Under the pieces are notes generated by a model that did no database searches, had not been told where the DNA came from, and saw only the letters and a program-made list of their open reading frames with translations. From IMG/VR virus record IMGVR_UViG_3300020202_000068, positions 1 through 64,000 of that record: a DNA stretch of 64,000 nt; one strand, given 5' to 3'. A program made the translations under genes and the position numbers. Shown piece by piece: positions 10,967 through 36,725 of the stretch; the first letter of the stretch is position 1; every line of letters begins with the position of its first letter. This stretch comes from a virus.

Positions 10967-11060
10967 GTGCTAGTAGCTCAACGGTAGAGCGCCGCAGAAC
11001 AAGGACCGCGAAAGCGAGCACCGCCTACGGAGGTAGCTGGATCGTCACCAGCCTAGCACC
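10967..11060 (+). ncRNA. tRNA-like RNA with the anticodon loop replaced by a 29-nt insert
   Basis: acceptor GTGCTAG/CTAGCAC, D arm GCTC-AACGGTA-GAGC, T arm GCTGG-ATCGTCA-CCAGC; no 7-nt anticodon loop. Confidence 0.8.
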
Positions 11061-11062
11061 CT

Positions 11063-14299: not shown

Positions 14300-15313
14300 A
14301 TGACTGCTGTAGCTACCGCTCCGGCCACTGACCGCCAGCTGACGATCGAGATGCCGGATGAGCCGATTTACGACATCTCCAGCCTTGGAGAAGGAATTGC
14401 TCTTCGCAACCGCCGTACCGTTGAGTTCACGACCGAGTTCGCCGCAGACTTCCTGAGTCGCTATGCGGAGTTTTGGGTTAATGACGAGAAGGTGGATCGC
14501 AAGCTCTCCGACAATCATGTGATCTACCTGGGTCGCGAGATGCTCTCCAGTAACTTTCGCTGGGAGCAGGTTAATCTCGTGATCGCGGAGGTTGAAGGCA
14601 CGATCTATCGCCTCAACGGTCAGCACACCGCCTGGGCCCGGCTGTACGCCGACGACGAGGGCCTCGATAAGAAGACCCGCTGCCCGGTCCAGCTCCTGCG
14701 GTACAACTGCGAGACGATCCAGGACGCACGACGACTCTACGCCTCCCTGGATCGCGGCCGTCCTCGCGGCCAGAATACCGTCGTCCAGTCCCATCTCCTG
14801 GGGACCGAGGAGTTCGAAGGGTACAAATCCAGCCAGCTCAGCCTCCTCTCACAGGGCCTGGCGTTCTGGATGTGGGACAGTATGCACACCCGGGGCCTGC
14901 ATGGCGGGGACGATCGGGCCTACCTGCTCCTCAAGGACTACCACAAGCTGGCCCTGGCGGTCGGCAACATCATTAAGCAGTCCAAGGCCTCCGACTTTAA
15001 GCATATGAAGCGGGCTCCGGTCGTGGGAGCAATGTTCGAGACCTTCAGCAAGGCCCCGCAGATCGCTCACGACTTCTGGCTGTCCGTGCGGGATGGGGTG
15101 GGCATCGGTGACAAAGAGGACCCCCGCTGGACGCTCCGGGAATACCTAAAAAACACGATCCTCTCGAAGTCCAAGGTCCATGCCGACCTGAAGATCGTGA
15201 CTCAGGAAGAGACCTACCGGGCCTGCGTTCATATGTGGAACGCTCACCGCTCTGGGCGGCGGGTGAAGCACATCCGGGTCAACATGACGGAAGCCCGGCC
15301 CACGGCCCGTTAA
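14300..15313 (+). CDS. ParB/Srx-like (DGQHR-variant) domain protein
   Basis: RKLSDNHV...M....F...YRLNGQHT..A...LDRGRPR. Confidence 0.65.
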   Translation: MTAVATAPATDRQLTIEMPDEPIYDISSLGEGIALRNRRTVEFTTEFAADFLSRYAEFWVNDEKVDRKLSDNHVIYLGREMLSSNFRWEQVNLVIAEVEGTIYRLNGQHTAWARLYADDEGLDKKTRCPVQLLRYNCETIQDARRLYASLDRGRPRGQNTVVQSHLLGTEEFEGYKSSQLSLLSQGLAFWMWDSMHTRGLHGGDDRAYLLLKDYHKLALAVGNIIKQSKASDFKHMKRAPVVGAMFETFSKAPQIAHDFWLSVRDGVGIGDKEDPRWTLREYLKNTILSKSKVHADLKIVTQEETYRACVHMWNAHRSGRRVKHIRVNMTEARPTAR

Positions 15314-15325
15314 TTCAACCATTAG

Positions 15326-15958
15326 ATGGCAGCGAGGAAGACGACGCCTGTCATGGAGATCAATATGCCGGCACCGAAGATAGTTCAGAAGCTACACGAC
15401 AAACCGTCGTTCCCGACGACGTACAAAATCGCCTGCCGGGACCACGGCAAGCAGGTCTCTGCCATCATGGATCGGGTCGCAGCCAGCAAGTCCGAGACGA
15501 TTAAAGCAGCCGTCAACGACCCAGCGGGGATTAAATGGCAGTTCGTAATGGCGCGGGCGAAAGACCCGGATGACCTGGAGACCGCCGAGCAGATCAAGGA
15601 CTACTTCATCAAGAAGAGCAGGGTCTATCTCAAGGCCACGGTCGGTGCGCCAGGCTCCGGGGGACGTTCCCTGCAATACGAGCCACTGGACACCATTCCG
15701 GTCTCGATCATGGCCCTCTTCGAGCAGAAGGCCAGCCAACTGGCGAAGCGCCGCGACCAGGAGGATACTGACATCGACGCCGAAGAGGAGCAGGGGGCCC
15801 TGATGATCGGCTACCGGGGAGACGAGGACAGCCTGGTCTCGATCCTCGATCGCTGGTGGACCACCCACCCTCAAGCCGATAAGCGGCTCTACTACTACGT
15901 GCGTGAGGGAGTAAAGCAACTTATGGAGTCGGCTGGCGAAACCAGCCGGAGACGATGA
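15326..15958 (+). CDS. hypothetical protein
   Basis: long ORF in operon, GC3 bias. Confidence 0.65.
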   Translation: MAARKTTPVMEINMPAPKIVQKLHDKPSFPTTYKIACRDHGKQVSAIMDRVAASKSETIKAAVNDPAGIKWQFVMARAKDPDDLETAEQIKDYFIKKSRVYLKATVGAPGSGGRSLQYEPLDTIPVSIMALFEQKASQLAKRRDQEDTDIDAEEEQGALMIGYRGDEDSLVSILDRWWTTHPQADKRLYYYVREGVKQLMESAGETSRRR

Positions 15959-31032: not shown

Positions 31033-31073
31033 CAAAAGCGACATGCCGTGTCGCTTTTGACGTAAGTCCTTAT
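31033..31073. repeat. palindrome plus TAAGTCCTTAT element, copy 2
   Basis: CAAAAGCGACA-N5-TGTCGCTTTTG-ACGTAAGTCCTTAT. Confidence 0.85.
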
Positions 31074-34000
31074 TTCTTGGTTGCCTTTCGCTTCTTACCA
31101 CGCTCATCGAGCAGGCTGTCCAGGGATTTCAGCTGGGCCACCAGCGCCTTTTTCTCGGGTGAGAGCGACGCAATTACGTCCTTCGGGATGTAGGCGCTGG
31201 AGAAGACCCGGCCACCGAGCTGCTTCTCGACGCGAGCCACCCGGTTGCGCAGCTCACGATCCATCGAGGCCGGAGAAACGTCCGTTAGATGCACACCAGT
31301 TCCGAGATTAACCGCCTTGGTGGCGGCGTTCTTGCGGGGATCGGTGAGTGTGCGGAGGGACGTAGCCACGCCCGAGAGCGGGGAATTCGAGAGCACATGC
31401 TCCATCAGGCCGCTGCCTGGATACCGAACCGGCTCCTTGGACTGCCGTAGGCCTGTCAGTTGGCCGATATTCGCCAACGTGCGGCCCAGCGGTGGGTCCA
31501 GGTCTTCCAGGTCTCGACCACCGAACGGCCCCTTCTGAAAGGCCGAGCGGCCGAACATATACTCCAGCGGGCCCTTAATGACCGGGCTGGTGCGGCTGAT
31601 AGCCTCCAACCCAACCTGCTTCAGGCTGGGGGTGGCGAATCCGGCTGGGTCTTCGAAGCCCAGGCCCAGGCCCGTCAGGTAGCGGCGCGAACCGTCCTGG
31701 AGGTCGCCTAGAGGGATACTGGCGGTCTCGGAGAGGTATTCAGGGGATAAGTCTTCGTGGCGGTGCTCGCGGCCCAGAGCCTTTATAGTCTGGGCCATCG
31801 GGCCGCCGGGGCTCGTCAATAGCCGCTCAATCGTCCATGGCAGGTTATTCCGACTGAACACATAAAACGGCACCACCCGCCGCATAACCTCCCGCTCGAA
31901 CGGGGCCATCGCGTGAGTCGAGTAGTCGTAATGCACCTCGGTCACGATCTTGGCGGCTTGCTCAGGATCAAACCCCTTGCCCTTCAGGTACTGATAGAGG
32001 GCCGCCCGGTTGTGATACTCCACCACCCGGTTCATCTTGGCGTTGGTCTGCATCCAGGTCCCAGCACCTTTACGAACCCCCTTCACGCCCTGGCCGAGCA
32101 GCGACGAGGGGTCGGCCGTGATCTGGCTCTCGACCTCTTTCGCGGTGGCCTTGATGTTTAGTGGGTTGTCTGGCAGGGCCTGATGCGGTGGCATTGCTCC
32201 CTGATAGACGTGCTGGTGGGCTTCGAGGGTCGAGTCGGCCCCGAGAATACCCATTACCTCCAGCTCACGCTCAAAGGACTTATCGCCTTTCCGCCAGAGA
32301 CTATTCACCTCGCCATACGCCTTCACGTAGTCCGCAATGTCGGCCGGGTTCTCGATGTACCCGCTAACAAGGTTGGCATACTGACCGCTGGTGTGATTGC
32401 GGAACCAGAATGCCGGCTTAACAAGCACCATCGCCGGTTTGAAATAACGATTGACGGTATCGAGCGTATTAGTGACCAGGTTTGCCCATTCCGGGTTCTC
32501 GTAGGTCTTAATGACGGCCGCTGCCGCATTAGCCAGCTCTGCCGGAACACGGGCCGCATCCAGCTGATCCAGCGGCACGCCAGACAACTTCCAGAAGTGC
32601 TGAAGCGCTGTATTCGGGTCCATCCCGGCGTGCTTAAAGGCGTCTTCTAGCCGCACCCCATCGCTGCCGAGGTTCATGTGGAAGGCTTCGTGAATAGCAC
32701 GGAAGGAGGCGTTCCGTTTATGGGCCTGGAGCATGTACCGTCCGAGGTCCTGGAAGGTCATATTGTCGAACAGTCGCTTCTGCTTCTCGACAGCGTCGGG
32801 GCTGGCGGCTTTCGCATACTCCGCCAGCTCTTTGGCGTGGGAAATCGAGTCCACGATGTCGTCTTTGGCCCGATAGCCGAGGTTGGGGAAGTCCTTGAGG
32901 ATTTCAGCCGCCCCACCCTCAGCGCGGTACTTCGGGTTCATTCGCAGGTCTTCAATCTGATCGGCACGCAAATGCCGCAGCGCCTCCTGGCGACCAGCCA
33001 TAGACTCGTGTCCGGTTGGCAGCTGACGGAAGGTATCCAGCGGACCTGTGCCCCGCTTGGACATATGCCTGGGGAAGTGCTGGAATTCATCAGTCTCGTC
33101 AATGAGATGCCCTTTACCGCCCATCTCCAGGTTTTGCCGCCACAGCTCGTCTTTGGCGGTGACGGCGTCCTCAGCCAGCTTGGCGATGTCGTCTTTCAGA
33201 GCGGCGGGAATCTCCGCTCCTGAGGCAAATTTCTCGATAGCCGCGTCCACATCCCCCTTCGTCTCGGCCGTCATGCGGAGAATGCGATCAAAGACCCGGG
33301 CTACGGGATCATGGGCAGCCCGCAGGCTCTCCGGTAGGTCGGCTGAGTTCGCCTTGGTGAGCTTCTCGAAGGGCATCTTTACCGTGGCCGTGGCCCCGGT
33401 CTGTGGGTGGGTGAAATGCACCTCTGCCCCGTCGTCCACCACCGAGGCAACGTACCCGTAGTTGCCACGGTCGGAGGCCTGAACAAGGTCTCCCTCTCGG
33501 AATGGCTTCGCTGATGCCTTGACGCCCTCAAACACATACGACTTACCGCTCCCAACATCCAGCCGAGTCCTTGCCCCTGGCTGGAGGATTTCGTCGGGAC
33601 CCAGCTCTCGCCATCCGTCAGGAGCGGCCTGACCGGCAGGCTTAAATGCCTGGCGGAATTTATCATCCACTTCCTTGAAGCGGTCCCAGAACTGGAGGGA
33701 TTGCTGGACGACCTGGCGGCGAGCAGCGGGCATCTTCTCGCTGGCCAGCTCAGAAACCACCTGGCCGTACTTATCGAATCGGCCACCCGATGGACCATGG
33801 AACAGGCCCTTTACCGTCCGCTTCACGGCACTGCCAGCGGCAGCAGCGGCGCGAGCACCGGGGATATAAGAGGCGGCTTTCCCGAGCCCTTCGATCAGCT
33901 TGGCCCCGCCCTCCCCAGCGCCCAGTGTTTGCGTCCCCATCCCCGGAATCCACAGATTCGCCACCCCGCCCAGAGGTTCTTTAAGTATCTCGTCGAAGTT

Positions 34001-34582
34001 CACACCCATCTTGGTGGCGGCATTCTTCGCGGCTGATCGGCGGGTGGTCTGCGTGGCCTCATCCCCGAAACTCAAGAGATCATCGAGCGTGGTGCGGGCC
34101 ATGGCCGGGGCGCGGCCCATCGTGGCACCTGCCCCCAGCTTGCCGGAGCGGCGGCCAGCGGCGGTCGCAGCCTTCGCCACGTCTCTCAGGGCCCCGGCCG
34201 CGTGAGCGACCTTCCCGGCCTTCGTGGCAGCCCCCAGCTTCGTGGCAAAACCAAGTGGATTGAGATACGTCAGCGGGTCAGTGGCAATATCCACCGCCAG
34301 CCCGGCACCCCAATTACCCCATGTATCCTTTCTTCCCACCATCCCGGCCTGTCGAAGCAGGTCCCGGCCCTCAACCCGGCCTTCCCCGGAGAGCGGGTGC
34401 AGGATCGGGGTAAGTGGGTTCTTGCCGGCCAGGGCGTTCTTAACGACGGCTCCCGGCGTTCCCAGGACGTTGCCGATATACGAAAGCCCACTCAGTCCGA
34501 CACTCTTGGCCTTCGAGAGGACGCCTTCCGGCTCCGGCGTCGGGCCGAGGAGCTGGTCTTCCGTGTATTTACGCTTAGCCAT
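31070..34582 (-). CDS. large internal virion/ejection protein (putative)
   Basis: 1170 aa Ala/Gly-rich helical; DIATDPLTY, F.FRNH, HYDYS...FER..MRR.VPFY.F.R.N motifs typical of podophage DNA-transfer proteins. Confidence 0.65.
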   Translation of the reverse strand: MAKRKYTEDQLLGPTPEPEGVLSKAKSVGLSGLSYIGNVLGTPGAVVKNALAGKNPLTPILHPLSGEGRVEGRDLLRQAGMVGRKDTWGNWGAGLAVDIATDPLTYLNPLGFATKLGAATKAGKVAHAAGALRDVAKAATAAGRRSGKLGAGATMGRAPAMARTTLDDLLSFGDEATQTTRRSAAKNAATKMGVNFDEILKEPLGGVANLWIPGMGTQTLGAGEGGAKLIEGLGKAASYIPGARAAAAAGSAVKRTVKGLFHGPSGGRFDKYGQVVSELASEKMPAARRQVVQQSLQFWDRFKEVDDKFRQAFKPAGQAAPDGWRELGPDEILQPGARTRLDVGSGKSYVFEGVKASAKPFREGDLVQASDRGNYGYVASVVDDGAEVHFTHPQTGATATVKMPFEKLTKANSADLPESLRAAHDPVARVFDRILRMTAETKGDVDAAIEKFASGAEIPAALKDDIAKLAEDAVTAKDELWRQNLEMGGKGHLIDETDEFQHFPRHMSKRGTGPLDTFRQLPTGHESMAGRQEALRHLRADQIEDLRMNPKYRAEGGAAEILKDFPNLGYRAKDDIVDSISHAKELAEYAKAASPDAVEKQKRLFDNMTFQDLGRYMLQAHKRNASFRAIHEAFHMNLGSDGVRLEDAFKHAGMDPNTALQHFWKLSGVPLDQLDAARVPAELANAAAAVIKTYENPEWANLVTNTLDTVNRYFKPAMVLVKPAFWFRNHTSGQYANLVSGYIENPADIADYVKAYGEVNSLWRKGDKSFERELEVMGILGADSTLEAHQHVYQGAMPPHQALPDNPLNIKATAKEVESQITADPSSLLGQGVKGVRKGAGTWMQTNAKMNRVVEYHNRAALYQYLKGKGFDPEQAAKIVTEVHYDYSTHAMAPFEREVMRRVVPFYVFSRNNLPWTIERLLTSPGGPMAQTIKALGREHRHEDLSPEYLSETASIPLGDLQDGSRRYLTGLGLGFEDPAGFATPSLKQVGLEAISRTSPVIKGPLEYMFGRSAFQKGPFGGRDLEDLDPPLGRTLANIGQLTGLRQSKEPVRYPGSGLMEHVLSNSPLSGVATSLRTLTDPRKNAATKAVNLGTGVHLTDVSPASMDRELRNRVARVEKQLGGRVFSSAYIPKDVIASLSPEKKALVAQLKSLDSLLDERGKKRKATKK

Positions 34583-34620
34583 TGATTCCTTCCTTGGAAT
34601 CTGTAATTCTAGTGAATCCC

Positions 34621-34973
34621 TGGAGGGACGCCGCTATAGAACCTCCAACCCTGGCGTTCGGGACGCGGCACAGAACGCATTGATGGGCCCGTAGCGGCAG
34701 TGGCTCCCGGTTGCAAACGGCTGCAAGCTGGATGGTGCAAATCCATCACCCGTCAACTGTCTTAGCTTCGGTCTAACGAGAGCCGTCATCTTCTCGTGAG
34801 GTGTGCGGGCGACCTTCATCGCTTTTGCAACACACCCGCCCGCAAACCCTGGTAGCAGCAGGGAGGGCGTATCGTCAATCAGGAGCCATCGACCAGGGCT
34901 CCGGCTTAGTCCGTCGGGCCTAACGAGCCTCCAATGCAATGGCGGACTTCACGGCCACTAGCAGAAGGTGGCC
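34621..34973 (+). ncRNA. array of about 9 tandem stem-loops including a tRNA-like unit (34680-34756)
   Basis: consecutive 5-8 bp inverted repeats; G.U pairs indicate the + strand. Confidence 0.55.
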
Positions 34974-34978
34974 AAACT

Positions 34979-35067
34979 CCCCGTATCGTTTAGTGGCAAG
35001 ACTTCGTGCAAAACTGGCCTCGGGCTGTAATTGCACGGTTCCCGGCGTTCGATTCCCGGTGCGGGGG
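34979..35067 (+). ncRNA. tRNA-like RNA with an extended hairpin instead of an anticodon loop
   Basis: acceptor CCCCGTA/TGCGGGG, D loop AGTGGCA, T loop TTCGATT; anticodon arm TCGTGCAA-AAC-TGGCC-TCG-GGCTG-TAA-TTGCACGG. Confidence 0.75.
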
Positions 35068-35069
35068 CT

Positions 35070-35141
35070 GAGTCCTTAGCCTAGAGGAGAGGCATCCGTC
35101 TTCTAAGCGGATATACGCTGGTTCGAATCCAGCAGGACTCG
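35070..35141 (+). tRNA. tRNA-Arg(TCT)
   Basis: GAGTCCT/AGGACTC acceptor, TCCGT-CTTCTAA-GCGGA anticodon arm, GCTGG-TTCGAAT-CCAGC T arm; CCA not encoded. Confidence 0.92.
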
Positions 35142-35246
35142 CTCACCAGCCTGGAAGAATGCCGATCCGCTGTGACGGATTCGCGTGGGTGACACACGAG
35201 ACGAGGTCTTGATCCGGGAGTCCGGGGAGCCAAAGTGATGCACGCC

Positions 35247-35519
35247 TCAGCGGTCGGCACCAGGTTTTTCCAGATACTCGATCAGCTTGTCCAAGTACCA
35301 CCGGCACTTCTTCAGGTCCTGGACGCCGTTCTTGAGCTTCCACCGCCAGAGATACTTGATGCAGTTGCCGGTGAGTACCCCCTCGAATCCGTCGAGACCC
35401 TGCGTGACCACCTCAATGGCCTGGATGCACTCAACTCCGCCTTGCCGGTAATGATTGGGGTTGATCGCTGGATCGCTCACAGACGGCTTCCCAGAGTCTT
35501 CGTTCGAGGGCTTTGACAT
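35247..35519 (-). CDS. DUF3310 (SaV-like) protein
   Basis: INPNHY..GG.ECI.AI...GN.IKYLWR...KNG.QDLKK..WYL. Confidence 0.88.
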   Translation of the reverse strand: MSKPSNEDSGKPSVSDPAINPNHYRQGGVECIQAIEVVTQGLDGFEGVLTGNCIKYLWRWKLKNGVQDLKKCRWYLDKLIEYLEKPGADR

Positions 35520-35642: not shown

Positions 35643-36725
35643 TCACCCACGAACTGCCTTCAGAAACGTAAGCCCGTCTTCTAACTGGTGGAAGCCAACG
35701 ATCTTGCGTCGATCCGGGAAGATCACGAACGTTGGGCATGTAGGGCGGGTCTTATTCCAGCCGAACTGCCGAGAATAAGCCGACGTGATCTGATAGGACC
35801 CCGGGCGACAGGCCCACCGCTCGATCCCGTGGCCGTAAAACGGCTCGACACAGCCCAGGTGGTTGTGGCAGATGCAGCCGATGTCCCAGTCGCACTCACC
35901 ATTTCGGAACCACTGCTTTGGCGCGTGCGTCTCGTTAAACGATGAATTGAGGCGGTACTGGTGCCTGACGCCCACCTTATACGACTGACCCCCCGTACGA
36001 ATCTTCAGGAAGGCCTCGTCCGGGGCATAGCACACTCGATTCCGCTTCAGCAGGCTCGATAGAACGTCCACGCCAGCAATTTGATTCGTCCACAGGTCGT
36101 GATTACCAGAAATAGCAACGAGGACACGATGAGCGAAGATATTCAAATACCACTCAAACAACTCCATCTGCTCGCTTGGCTGGGACCTCGCGGCGAGGAC
36201 GGCGCTACGGTGCTTAATGTGGTTGTCCGTGGCGTCCCCGCCGAGGATGGCGTAGCACCCATCACTTTCAGCCACCGCCACGGCATCCTGGCGCATCCTG
36301 GCCAAATCGACCGTGTTCCCAAGGCTAATATGCTGGTCGCTGATGAACGTAATAGCGCATGGCTCGGCTGGGAGTTCGACACTGAACTCCGACATGAGCA
36401 GTGAGCGTTGAATCTGATCAGCGTTCTCAACCTCTGCCGCCTTCCAGCGGGCCTCTGGCGAGCTGGATTCGGGCGGGATATAGGCGGGGACGACTTCCGG
36501 TCTGGTTCCCTCGGCGATCTTCAGCTGGGCCCTGAGAGCGGCCAGCTCCATTTCCTTGGCCTCCAGCGGGTCCACGGGAGCGGGTTGGCCGGAATCGGCG
36601 GCCAGCTTCTGCTGCCAGCCCCAGGCCGTGGAGCGGGGGACCCCCACGATCCTCCCCACCTCCGTCGCCCCCACCCCCAACGCGAATAGCTTCTCCGCCT
36701 CAGCCTTCTTGGCCAGATCGTCCAT
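35643..36725 (-). CDS. calcineurin-like metallophosphoesterase with N-terminal HTH
   Basis: SDQH, GGD..DN, GNHD, RH, CHNH motifs; EVGRIVGVPRSTAWGW HTH. Confidence 0.85.
   Translation of the reverse strand: MDDLAKKAEAEKLFALGVGATEVGRIVGVPRSTAWGWQQKLAADSGQPAPVDPLEAKEMELAALRAQLKIAEGTRPEVVPAYIPPESSSPEARWKAAEVENADQIQRSLLMSEFSVELPAEPCAITFISDQHISLGNTVDLARMRQDAVAVAESDGCYAILGGDATDNHIKHRSAVLAARSQPSEQMELFEWYLNIFAHRVLVAISGNHDLWTNQIAGVDVLSSLLKRNRVCYAPDEAFLKIRTGGQSYKVGVRHQYRLNSSFNETHAPKQWFRNGECDWDIGCICHNHLGCVEPFYGHGIERWACRPGSYQITSAYSRQFGWNKTRPTCPTFVIFPDRRKIVGFHQLEDGLTFLKAVRG

What the first reader, a model, noticed from the sequence alone, without database searches (positions are those of the whole stretch)
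34979..35141. Second anticodon-less tRNA mimic in tandem with a real tRNA-Arg(TCT)
Seen: cloverleaf with canonical D loop (AGTGG) and T loop (TTCGATT), but the anticodon arm is an 8-bp stem, a 3x3 internal loop and a 5-bp hairpin; 2 nt later a normal tRNA-Arg(TCT) starts. It shares little sequence with the 10967 RNA but has the same design, suggesting a recurrent strategy of elbow-preserving, non-decoding tRNA mimics. The 3x3 loop is not a bulge-helix-bulge intron.
Basis: partly seen in the sequence, partly recalled or inferred. Interest (0 to 1): 0.7.

Follow-up and report, generated by a model that had tools for sequence, protein, structure and literature searches.

The report
Anticodon-less tRNA relic beside phage tRNA-Arg
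Next to its one working arginine tRNA gene, this uncultivated phage has a second gene that still has every hallmark of a tRNA but carries a sealed hairpin where the anticodon should be; it cannot read codons, no other sequence searched has a copy, and it is most likely an ordinary tRNA gene rebuilt or disabled in this lineage, not a proven "mimic".

Summary
Window 34979-35067 (+) folds as a tRNA cloverleaf. It has a 7-bp acceptor stem, a canonical D arm, a UUCGAUU T loop and all the elbow nucleotides. Its anticodon arm is a closed 35-nt hairpin. A normal tRNA-Arg(UCU) starts 2 nt later.

- **Not chance:** ARAGORN finds it 1% below its default cut-off, where 30 shuffled genomes give one hit in all. 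Rfam's tRNA model aligns it end to end at 19 bits (cut-off 29).
- **Cannot decode:** no single deletion gives a loop with U33 and a purine at 37. There is no bulge-helix-bulge motif. The phage encodes no RtcB, RNA ligase, splicing endonuclease or CCA enzyme.
- **An orphan:** the 660-nt non-coding island holding it and tRNA-Arg is missing from the four nearest relatives with readable synteny. No homologue appeared in IMG/VR, GTDB genomes or GenBank phages.
- **Sister RNA:** the RNA at 10967 is the positional orthologue of an ordinary tRNA-His in a relative.

Both therefore look like phage tRNA genes whose anticodon arm was rebuilt in this lineage. Whether this one is a dead tRNA or a co-opted mimic cannot be settled here; I lean slightly towards relic. 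Earlier notes of this scan describe similar designs on other phage DNA.

The parts
34979..35067 (+). c2: tRNA-derived RNA gene, 89 nt, with a cloverleaf frame and a sealed, extended anticodon arm. C1-G72, discriminator G73, no encoded CCA.
   Evidence: ARAGORN at -ps99 with introns allowed; RF00005 at 19.0 bits over model 1-71; pair list and cloverleaf energy.
35004..35038 (+). Extended anticodon arm: 8-bp stem (35004-35011 / 35031-35038), 3x3 internal loop (35012-14 / 35028-30), 5-bp stem (35015-19 / 35023-27), UCG triloop (35020-22).
   Evidence: RNAfold minimum-energy and centroid folds. With the outer 5 pairs forced, the inner 25 nt fold better than shuffles (z = -2.05, fraction 0.04).
35010..35027 (+). 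The 18 nt (AAAACTGGCCTCGGGCTG) that ARAGORN treats as an insert between positions 32 and 33. Removing it leaves the loop CUAAUUG.
   Evidence: The sequence is unique in the window.
35042..35059 (+). T arm: CCGG[C]G - UUCGAUU - CCCGG, with C35046 bulged.
   Evidence: Rfam alignment shows the c as an insertion; pair list.
35068..35069 (+). 2-nt spacer (CT) between the two genes, as in a dimeric tRNA precursor.
   Evidence: Sequence; ARAGORN coordinates.
35070..35142 (+). Canonical tRNA-Arg(TCT), with no encoded CCA.
   Evidence: ARAGORN; RF00005 62.8 bits.
34583..35246 (+). 664-nt non-coding island holding c2 and tRNA-Arg. It lies antisense to the flanking genes (DUF3310 at 35247-35519 and the 1170-aa ORF at 31070-34582, both on the minus strand).
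   Evidence: Relatives L003, L004, L005 and G005 have only about 22-130 nt between these two genes. The ORF inside the island lacks a coding GC pattern. The island folds somewhat better than shuffles (z = -2.2).
34953..34973 (+). Stable 7-bp hairpin with a 7-nt loop (GGCCACU-AGCAGAA-GGUGGCC), 5 nt upstream of c2.
   Evidence: z = -3.0, 0 of 200 shuffles fold as well. Its loop word TAGCAGMAGG recurs at 34853.
34680..34757 (+). Weak, possibly older tRNA-like element: 8-bp closing stem and a T-arm-like hairpin GAUGG-UGCAAAU-CCAUC.
   Evidence: The minimum-energy fold is a four-way junction, but z = -0.7. ARAGORN reports it only at -ps80, a setting that gives many false hits. Its T arm is 81% identical to that of tRNA-Arg.
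10967..11061 (+). c1: the sister RNA with the same design. It is an ex-tRNA-His whose anticodon arm is replaced by a 39-nt arm.
   Evidence: ARAGORN at -ps99. Positional and sequence orthology to tRNA-His(GTG) at L059:1501-1574.

Best explanation
c2 is an ordinary type-I phage tRNA gene, the upstream member of a tandem pair with tRNA-Arg(UCU). Its anticodon loop was destroyed in this phage lineage by about 18 extra nucleotides, which zip up with the old loop into a closed 13-bp arm.

Shown:
- It is tRNA-derived.
- It keeps the acceptor/T and D/T elbow architecture.
- It has no anticodon loop.
- It is lineage-specific.

Inferred:
- It is transcribed together with tRNA-Arg.
- RNase P cuts in front of C34979 and in front of G35070. 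The 3' CU is trimmed and CCA is added by host enzymes.
- The product is a stable L-shaped RNA that cannot enter decoding.

On present evidence it is most likely a disabled tRNA (a pseudo-tRNA) carried along with the working tRNA-Arg, with no demonstrated function of its own.
For: - **tRNA ancestry:** ARAGORN reports it just below the default cut-off, with almost no hits in shuffled or related DNA. RF00005 aligns it end to end at 19 bits. U8, A14, G15, G18, G19, A21, C48, G53, U54, U55, C56, A58 and C61 are all present.
- **Tandem spacing:** it ends 2 nt before a real tRNA.
- **No decoding:** the arm ends in a 3-nt loop. Every way of deleting one 18-nt block from the 25-nt loop gives A33, or a pyrimidine at 37, or both (read from the sequence; ARAGORN's best reading is anticodon AAU with U37).
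- **Lineage-specific:** the island is absent from L003/G002, L004/G003, L005/G004 and G005. Forty further loci show no tRNA or tRNA-like gene near the marker gene. Searches of IMG/VR and GenBank phages found no homologue. The one match in the GTDB genomes was to the generic frame only.
- **Precedent in the same genome:** c1 sits where a relative has a normal tRNA-His.
- **tRNA genes turn over fast in this phage group:** G005 has His only, G004 has Thr and Arg(CCG), and G002 has only degenerate pieces.
- **Signs of decay:** a bulged C in the T stem and a 3-nt variable loop. c1 has lost T54/A58 and gets no RF00005 match at all.
Against: - All four stems are still fully paired and every tertiary-contact nucleotide is intact, which random decay would erode.
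- The extra nucleotides do not merely disrupt the loop. They extend the anticodon helix into a stable arm (z = -2.05).
- Two genes in one 77-kb genome share this design.
- A tightly packed phage genome keeps 660 nt of non-coding DNA here.
- Ascertainment is biased: cloverleaf finders can only see relics whose frame is intact, so 'frame intact, loop destroyed' is partly what the method selects.
Confidence: 0.5

Rival explanations
1. Selected non-decoding tRNA mimic. The phage keeps an L-shaped, RNase P-processed, CCA-tailed RNA without an anticodon because the shape itself is useful. Possible uses are a decoy or sponge for host factors that attack or sense tRNA bodies or 3' ends, a stable scaffold displaying the hairpin to a protein, or a processing and stabilising element for the tRNA-Arg transcript.
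For: - Intact stems and tertiary nucleotides.
- A structured insert that stacks coaxially on the anticodon stem.
- Two such RNAs in one genome.
- An unrelated phage (L084) has two tRNA-Gln-derived paralogues with non-anticodon 6-nt loops in tandem before a real tRNA-Gln.
- Earlier unchecked notes of this scan report the same design in other phages.
- Phage tRNAs are known to be shaped by anticodon-nuclease defence (PMC10264068, listed).
- A pseudo-tRNA with a non-translational role exists in Bacillus cereus (PMC3399842, abstract listed).
Against: - No conservation at all could be shown: absent from the four nearest relatives with readable synteny and no homologue elsewhere.
- The hairpin has no recognisable protein-binding motif and no GGA.
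- Without an anticodon loop it cannot mimic the substrate of an anticodon nuclease.
- The T stem carries a defect.
Confidence: 0.33
2. A working tRNA interrupted by a short protein-spliced 'mini-intron' of 14-18 nt, of the kind called enigmatic in Lak megaphage tRNAs. After excision and ligation it would decode.
For: - ARAGORN models it as a tRNA with an 18-nt intron.
- Published precedent that phage tRNA genes can carry short inserts of unknown removal mechanism (Devoto et al. 2019, PMC6784885).
- In a register shifted by one, deleting 14 nt leaves GUGCA-CUGUAAU-UGCAC, a good-looking Tyr-type arm (read from the sequence).
Against: - In the register that fits tRNA geometry the spliced loop is CUAAUUG: anticodon AAU with A34 and pyrimidine 37, which I know of in no bacterial decoder.
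- The Tyr-like register leaves 2-3 nt between the D and anticodon stems, and bacterial tRNA-Tyr is type II (own knowledge).
- The two 3-nt loops face each other instead of being staggered by 4 bp, so there is no bulge-helix-bulge motif.
- The phage has no RtcB, RNA ligase or splicing endonuclease.
- c1 has no GUG anywhere in its 29-nt loop, so the same idea fails for the sister RNA.
Confidence: 0.07
3. Not an RNA gene: a chance cloverleaf, or the sequence serves another role on the DNA or on the minus-strand mRNA (for example an attP core or an intercistronic structure).
For: - The cloverleaf is not the minimum-energy fold and z = -0.9.
- No promoter or terminator consensus was found in the island.
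- The flanking genes are transcribed from the other strand.
Against: - The shuffle control.
- The end-to-end RF00005 alignment.
- The exact 2-nt abutment, on the same strand, to a 62.8-bit tRNA.
- No tyrosine integrase in the genome.
- The bulged T stem argues against a copy of a host tRNA 3' half.
Confidence: 0.05

Closest known systems
Canonical type-I elongator tRNA (Rfam RF00005), small-D-loop kind
   Same: - 7-bp acceptor stem, U8, 4-bp D stem with AGUGGCA loop, G53-C61, UUCGAUU T loop, short variable loop.
- The same D-loop and T-loop words occur in phage tRNA-Trp, Gln, Thr and Val genes.
   Different: - The anticodon arm is 13 bp plus an internal loop and ends in a triloop.
- No U33 and no anticodon.
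- Bulged C in the T stem.
- 19 bits against the gathering score of 29.
'Enigmatic' introns in Lak megaphage tRNAs (Devoto et al. 2019, PMC6784885)
   Same: A phage tRNA gene with a short extra segment in the anticodon region, too small for a group I intron and of unknown fate.
   Different: - The Lak inserts leave a recognisable anticodon and are conserved across cohorts.
- Here no sensible anticodon is recovered and nothing is conserved.
Pseudo-tRNA 'tRNA-Other' of Bacillus cereus (PMC3399842)
   Same: A tRNA-shaped gene that does not work in translation (abstract).
   Different: That one has a deletion phenotype. No function has been shown for c2. The two share no sequence relation that I tested.
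YrlA, the tRNA-like bacterial and phage Y RNA (Rfam RF02553)
   Same: A non-decoding RNA that keeps the tRNA elbow and has a long stem at the anticodon position (own knowledge, and a lead).
   Different: - YrlA is circularly permuted: its ends are on the long stem and its acceptor is sealed. c2 has free acceptor ends and a sealed anticodon arm.
- No Rfam match other than tRNA.
- Presence of a Ro60 gene was not tested.
Engineered 'tRNA scaffold' for expressing RNA in E. coli (Ponchon and Dardel; cf. PMC3753655)
   Same: The design is the same: a tRNA body with the anticodon arm swapped for a foreign hairpin, giving an RNA that is processed and stable (own knowledge; paper listed).
   Different: That is a laboratory construct. 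Whether nature uses c2 this way is unknown.
Stable tRNA-like RNAs in phage tRNA clusters (T4 RNAs C and D; T5 RNA1/RNA2)
   Same: Small stable RNAs of unknown role, co-transcribed and co-processed with phage tRNAs (own knowledge; T5 lead).
   Different: I did not test for any sequence or structural relation. blastn of c2 against GenBank phages finds nothing.

Membership tests
tRNA (RF00005) | Cloverleaf with 7-bp acceptor stem, D arm with G18 G19, and T arm with a T-psi-C-R-A loop | tested here: met
   The T stem has one bulged C.
tRNA (RF00005) | 5-bp anticodon stem closing a 7-nt loop with U33 and a 3-nt anticodon | tested here: not met
   The arm has 8 + 5 bp and ends in a UCG triloop.
tRNA (RF00005) | Score at or above Rfam's gathering score (29 bits) | tested here: not met
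   19.0 bits. Not reported in the gathering scan or in the 700-nt E-value scan.
Archaeal/eukaryal-type spliced tRNA | Bulge-helix-bulge motif: two 3-nt bulges on opposite strands, 4 bp apart, at the splice sites | tested here: not met
   The two 3-nt loops lie directly opposite each other.
Archaeal/eukaryal-type spliced tRNA | Exons rebuild a usable anticodon loop | tested here: not met
   Best case is CUAAUUG, with A34 and U37. The other splits give A33.
Archaeal/eukaryal-type spliced tRNA | Splicing endonuclease and RNA ligase available | tested here: inconclusive
   The phage genome has none (PF01974, PF01139, PF09414). The host is unknown, so host enzymes could not be checked.
Group I intron in a tRNA | Self-splicing intron of about 200 nt or more with the P1-P9 core | tested here: not met
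   The insert is 18 nt. No Rfam intron match.
tmRNA | tRNA-like domain plus a tag reading frame and pseudoknots | tested here: not met
   ARAGORN finds no tmRNA. The RNA is only 89 nt.
YrlA / Y RNA | Permuted topology with a sealed acceptor stem and a Ro-binding stem formed by the 5' and 3' ends | tested here: not met
   The ends are at the acceptor stem. No Rfam match.
   Absent from all relatives reached. Pattern and BLAST searches found no homologue; the one GTDB match was to the generic frame only. The closer relatives (71-75% identity) could not be fetched.

The most novel reading that the evidence does not exclude
Phages repeatedly convert their own tRNA genes into anticodon-less, L-shaped RNAs. 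They keep the frame that RNase P, the CCA enzyme and modification enzymes recognise and swap the anticodon arm for a hairpin. They then use these RNAs as decoys or scaffolds in conflicts over host tRNA. On this reading c2 and c1 are two independent conversions in one genome, one from an unknown isotype and one from tRNA-His.
Probability: 0.25. Interest if true: 0.7.

Novelty: new member of a known kind. Interest (0 to 1): 0.33.

Why it matters
If c2 is only a disabled tRNA, it matters mainly for annotation. Standard tRNA finders miss it, and relaxed ones would miscall it tRNA-Ile with an intron. It also illustrates how fast tRNA genes turn over in this phage group.

If it is kept by selection, it joins a growing set of phage RNAs that retain the tRNA shape but drop decoding, whose purpose is unknown. 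The c1/tRNA-His pair would then be a clean before-and-after example of how such RNAs arise.

Tried and rejected
**Searches for homologues**
- megablast and blastn against GenBank phages matched only the tRNA-Arg. c2 alone found nothing.
- Four exact or gapped patterns in IMG/VR found nothing.
- One looser frame pattern hit only generic tRNA-Trp, Gln, Thr and Val genes.
- One GTDB-wide scan gave a single hit, an odd tRNA-'Ile'(GAT) in an Acidobacteriota tRNA array. It shares the D and T words that the pattern forced. I do not treat it as the ancestor.

**Synteny through flanking proteins**
- IMG/VR with the 1170-aa ORF and with the phosphoesterase; JGI metagenomes.
- The island was absent from every relative whose DUF3310/large-ORF junction could be read (four records), and no tRNA or tRNA-like gene lay near the marker gene in the other 40 loci.

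**Leads that turned out to be chance or unassignable**
- A 13-nt match of the insert to a multicopy element of the Acidobacteriota MAG is chance.
- The G002 word TAGGGTTATC is not enriched in the window.
- The isotype of the ancestor cannot be assigned.

**Readings rejected**
- Intron, attP, tmRNA, YrlA and tRNA-Pyl-like readings: see the membership tests.
- The ORF at 34634-34939 (minus strand) inside the island is rejected as a gene because of its GC pattern by codon position.
- No sigma-70 promoter or intrinsic terminator passed the consensus scan.

Full report
**Setting.** The window is the first 64 kb of a 77,276-bp IMG/VR virus record with about 59% G+C. The finding lies in a 664-nt gap (34583-35246). 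The gap separates two minus-strand genes: a DUF3310 protein (35247-35519) and an unannotatable 1170-aa ORF (31070-34582). The only ORF of any length inside the gap has a G+C pattern by codon position unlike the real genes (0.60/0.56/0.64 against about 0.6/0.45/0.75). The gap is therefore non-coding.

**Observation.** ARAGORN and Rfam agree on one canonical tRNA in the whole genome, tRNA-Arg(TCT) at 35070-35142, scoring 62.8 bits. Two nucleotides upstream ends an 89-nt stretch, 34979-35067, here called c2. It can be drawn as a cloverleaf:
- Acceptor stem CCCCGUA/UGCGGGG.
- U8 C9.
- D stem GUUU/AGAC with loop AGUGGCA.
- One linker nucleotide.
- A 35-nt arm.
- A 3-nt variable loop.
- T arm CCGG[C]G-UUCGAUU-CCCGG.
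- Discriminator G.

All nucleotides that build the tRNA elbow and core are present: U8, A14, G15, G18, G19, A21, C48, G53, U54, U55, C56, A58 and C61.

Two details were glossed over in the finding. The T stem needs a bulged C (35046), and the variable loop has only three nucleotides.

**Is it chance?** By energy alone it is unremarkable. The cloverleaf is 3.2 kcal/mol above the minimum-energy fold, and the z-score is -0.9. As a pattern it is not chance:
- With introns allowed and the threshold lowered by only 1-4%, ARAGORN reports exactly three genes in 77 kb: c2, the RNA at 10967 (c1) and tRNA-Arg.
- Thirty dinucleotide shuffles of the genome give one hit in all at the 1% setting and nine at 4%.
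- About 300 kb of related phage loci give none at a 3% lowering. The five related records (about 207 kb) give no false hit at 1% and one, inside coding sequence, at 3%.
- On a short slice with laxer filters, Rfam's tRNA model aligns c2 over all 71 model positions at 19.0 bits (E 0.052). It puts 25 nt where the model has 9 and treats the bulged c as an insertion. The 700-nt search had missed it.
- Its same-strand position 2 nt before a real tRNA adds to this.

I take tRNA ancestry as established.

**Can it decode or be spliced?**
- The arm ends in a triloop, so as it stands it cannot decode.
- In the register that fits tRNA geometry, 25 nt lie between the 5-bp stem UCGUG/CACGG. Every way of deleting one 18-nt block leaves A33, or a pyrimidine at 37, or both.
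- ARAGORN's best reading is CUAAUUG: anticodon AAU, A34, U37.
- A register shifted by one gives a handsome GUGCA-CUGUAAU-UGCAC. It leaves 2-3 nt between the D and anticodon stems, and it would make a type-I tRNA-Tyr, which bacteria do not use (own knowledge).
- The two 3-nt loops face each other, so there is no bulge-helix-bulge motif.
- The phage genome has no RtcB, no RNA ligase (PF09414), no splicing endonuclease, no CCA-adding enzyme, no tyrosine integrase and no GIY-YIG endonuclease.

The intron reading is therefore weak. It has a published precedent in the 'enigmatic' tRNA introns of Lak megaphages (PMC6784885).

**Relatives.** The neighbouring phosphoesterase gene (35643-36725) served as the marker.
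- Its homologues at 62-68% identity lie in four IMG/VR records: G002, G003, G004 and G005.
- In all four the DUF3310 gene is followed within about 22-130 nt by the homologue of the large ORF. The island, with tRNA-Arg and c2, is simply not there.
- Forty more distant loci have no tRNA or tRNA-like gene near the marker gene.
- No pattern or BLAST search found a homologue of c2 in IMG/VR, GenBank phages or 185,579 GTDB species genomes.
- A looser frame pattern showed that c2's D-loop and T-loop words are shared by phage tRNA-Trp, Gln, Thr and Val genes. The frame is generic and the ancestral isotype cannot be named.

**The sister RNA gives the clearest clue.** G005 is a complete 70.6-kb relative. 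It has one tRNA, tRNA-His(GTG), at L059:1501-1574.
- Its flanking genes match the window's genes on both sides of c1.
- The alignment shows shared flanks (…GAAAGGG…TTG… upstream, CACCCTTGT downstream) and a shared frame.
- Between the two, G4:C69 became C4:G69 in the acceptor stem, and two T-stem pairs changed on both sides.
- The whole anticodon arm (CTAGA-TGGTGAA-TCTAG) is replaced in c1 by a 39-nt arm without GUG.

So c1 is an ex-tRNA-His.

tRNA genes in this phage group come and go. G005 has His. G004 has Thr and Arg(CCG) at other sites. G002 has none intact but has a 700-nt non-coding stretch with tRNA-like pieces.

**Relic or mimic?**

For a relic:
- No conservation.
- A defect in the T stem.
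- A sister RNA that has drifted further: T loop AUCGUCA and no RF00005 match even on a short slice.
- Rapid tRNA turnover in the group.

For a selected RNA:
- Every stem and tertiary contact is intact.
- The extra nucleotides build a stable coaxial extension instead of merely breaking the loop (z = -2.05).
- Two such genes occur in one compact genome.
- A 660-nt non-coding island is retained.
- An unrelated phage (L084) has two tRNA-Gln-derived paralogues with 6-nt non-anticodon loops in tandem before a real tRNA-Gln.

Ascertainment bias weakens the second list, because cloverleaf finders can only see relics with intact frames. I put the disabled-tRNA reading at about 0.5, a selected mimic at about 0.33, a spliced tRNA at about 0.07 and no RNA gene at about 0.05.

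**Mechanism, as far as it goes.**
- **Shown:** tRNA-derived frame, sealed anticodon arm, tandem position.
- **Inferred from established tRNA biology:** co-transcription with tRNA-Arg from an unidentified + strand promoter. RNase P then cuts 5' of C34979 (U at -1) and 5' of G35070, the CU is trimmed by exonucleases, and the host adds CCA. The product is a stable L-shaped RNA.
- **Aminoacylation:** it lacks G3.U70, a long variable arm and G-1, the identity elements that let some synthetases ignore the anticodon. It would therefore probably stay uncharged (own knowledge).

The scan's earlier notes describe the same design in other phages. They are unchecked leads and I do not count them as support.

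Noticed in passing
window 10967-11061 and L059:1501-1574: The sister RNA c1 is the positional and sequence orthologue of a normal tRNA-His(GTG) in a 63%-identical complete phage (G005). The frame and flanks are conserved, with compensatory changes in the acceptor and T stems, and the whole anticodon arm is replaced.
   Followed up: yes
L010 (G002) about 15161-15870, minus strand: A 700-nt non-coding stretch in the nearest relative. It holds two or three tRNA-like pieces, one of 124 nt with perfect 7-bp acceptor and 5-bp T stems. It also holds five copies of the word GGGCCGG...T(T)AGGGTTATC and is followed by an ORF with a GIY-YIG-like N-terminus (14357-15160, recognised by eye and not tested). 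No tblastx similarity to the window.
   Followed up: partly
L084:3247-3511: An unrelated 74-kb phage contig has three tandem units with one frame. Two have 6-nt non-anticodon loops and weak acceptor pairing and are not called as tRNAs at ARAGORN's default setting. The third is a real tRNA-Gln(TTG). One loop holds the word CTAACGAG, which also occurs twice in the window's island.
   Followed up: partly
window 34847-34863 and 34953-34973: Two hairpins in the island share the loop word UAGCAG(C/A)AGG, which occurs nowhere else in the window. The word CTAACGAG likewise occurs only at 34773 and 34920.
   Followed up: partly
window 34680-34757: A cloverleaf-like four-way junction with T-arm-like GAUGG-UGCAAAU-CCAUC. 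The 124-nt tRNA-like piece in G002 has GACGG-UGCAAUC-CCGUC. It may be an older tRNA relic, but it is not significant by ARAGORN or by folding energy.
   Followed up: partly
L076 (Acidobacteriota MAG, contig 19, about 311-312 kb): An array of 12 closely packed tRNA genes with encoded CCA and unusual D arms. It includes a tRNA-'Ile'(GAT) with loop CTGATCA (pyrimidine at 37) and only 6 clean acceptor pairs.
   Followed up: partly
window 34582-34610, + strand: A possible extended -10 promoter for the island: TTGATT, 17 nt ending in TGT, then AATTCT. It overlaps the start codon of the minus-strand 1170-aa ORF and falls below the scan tool's criteria.
   Followed up: no
L077:8064-8163: A 100-nt 'tRNA-???' with a 4-nt anticodon call and a long variable arm, 9 nt upstream of a tRNA-Trp in another phage contig.
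   Followed up: no
window, all likely genes: AGA, the codon read by the phage's tRNA-Arg(UCU), is rare in the phage's own genes: 3.1 per 1000 codons against 22.9 for CGG.
   Followed up: no
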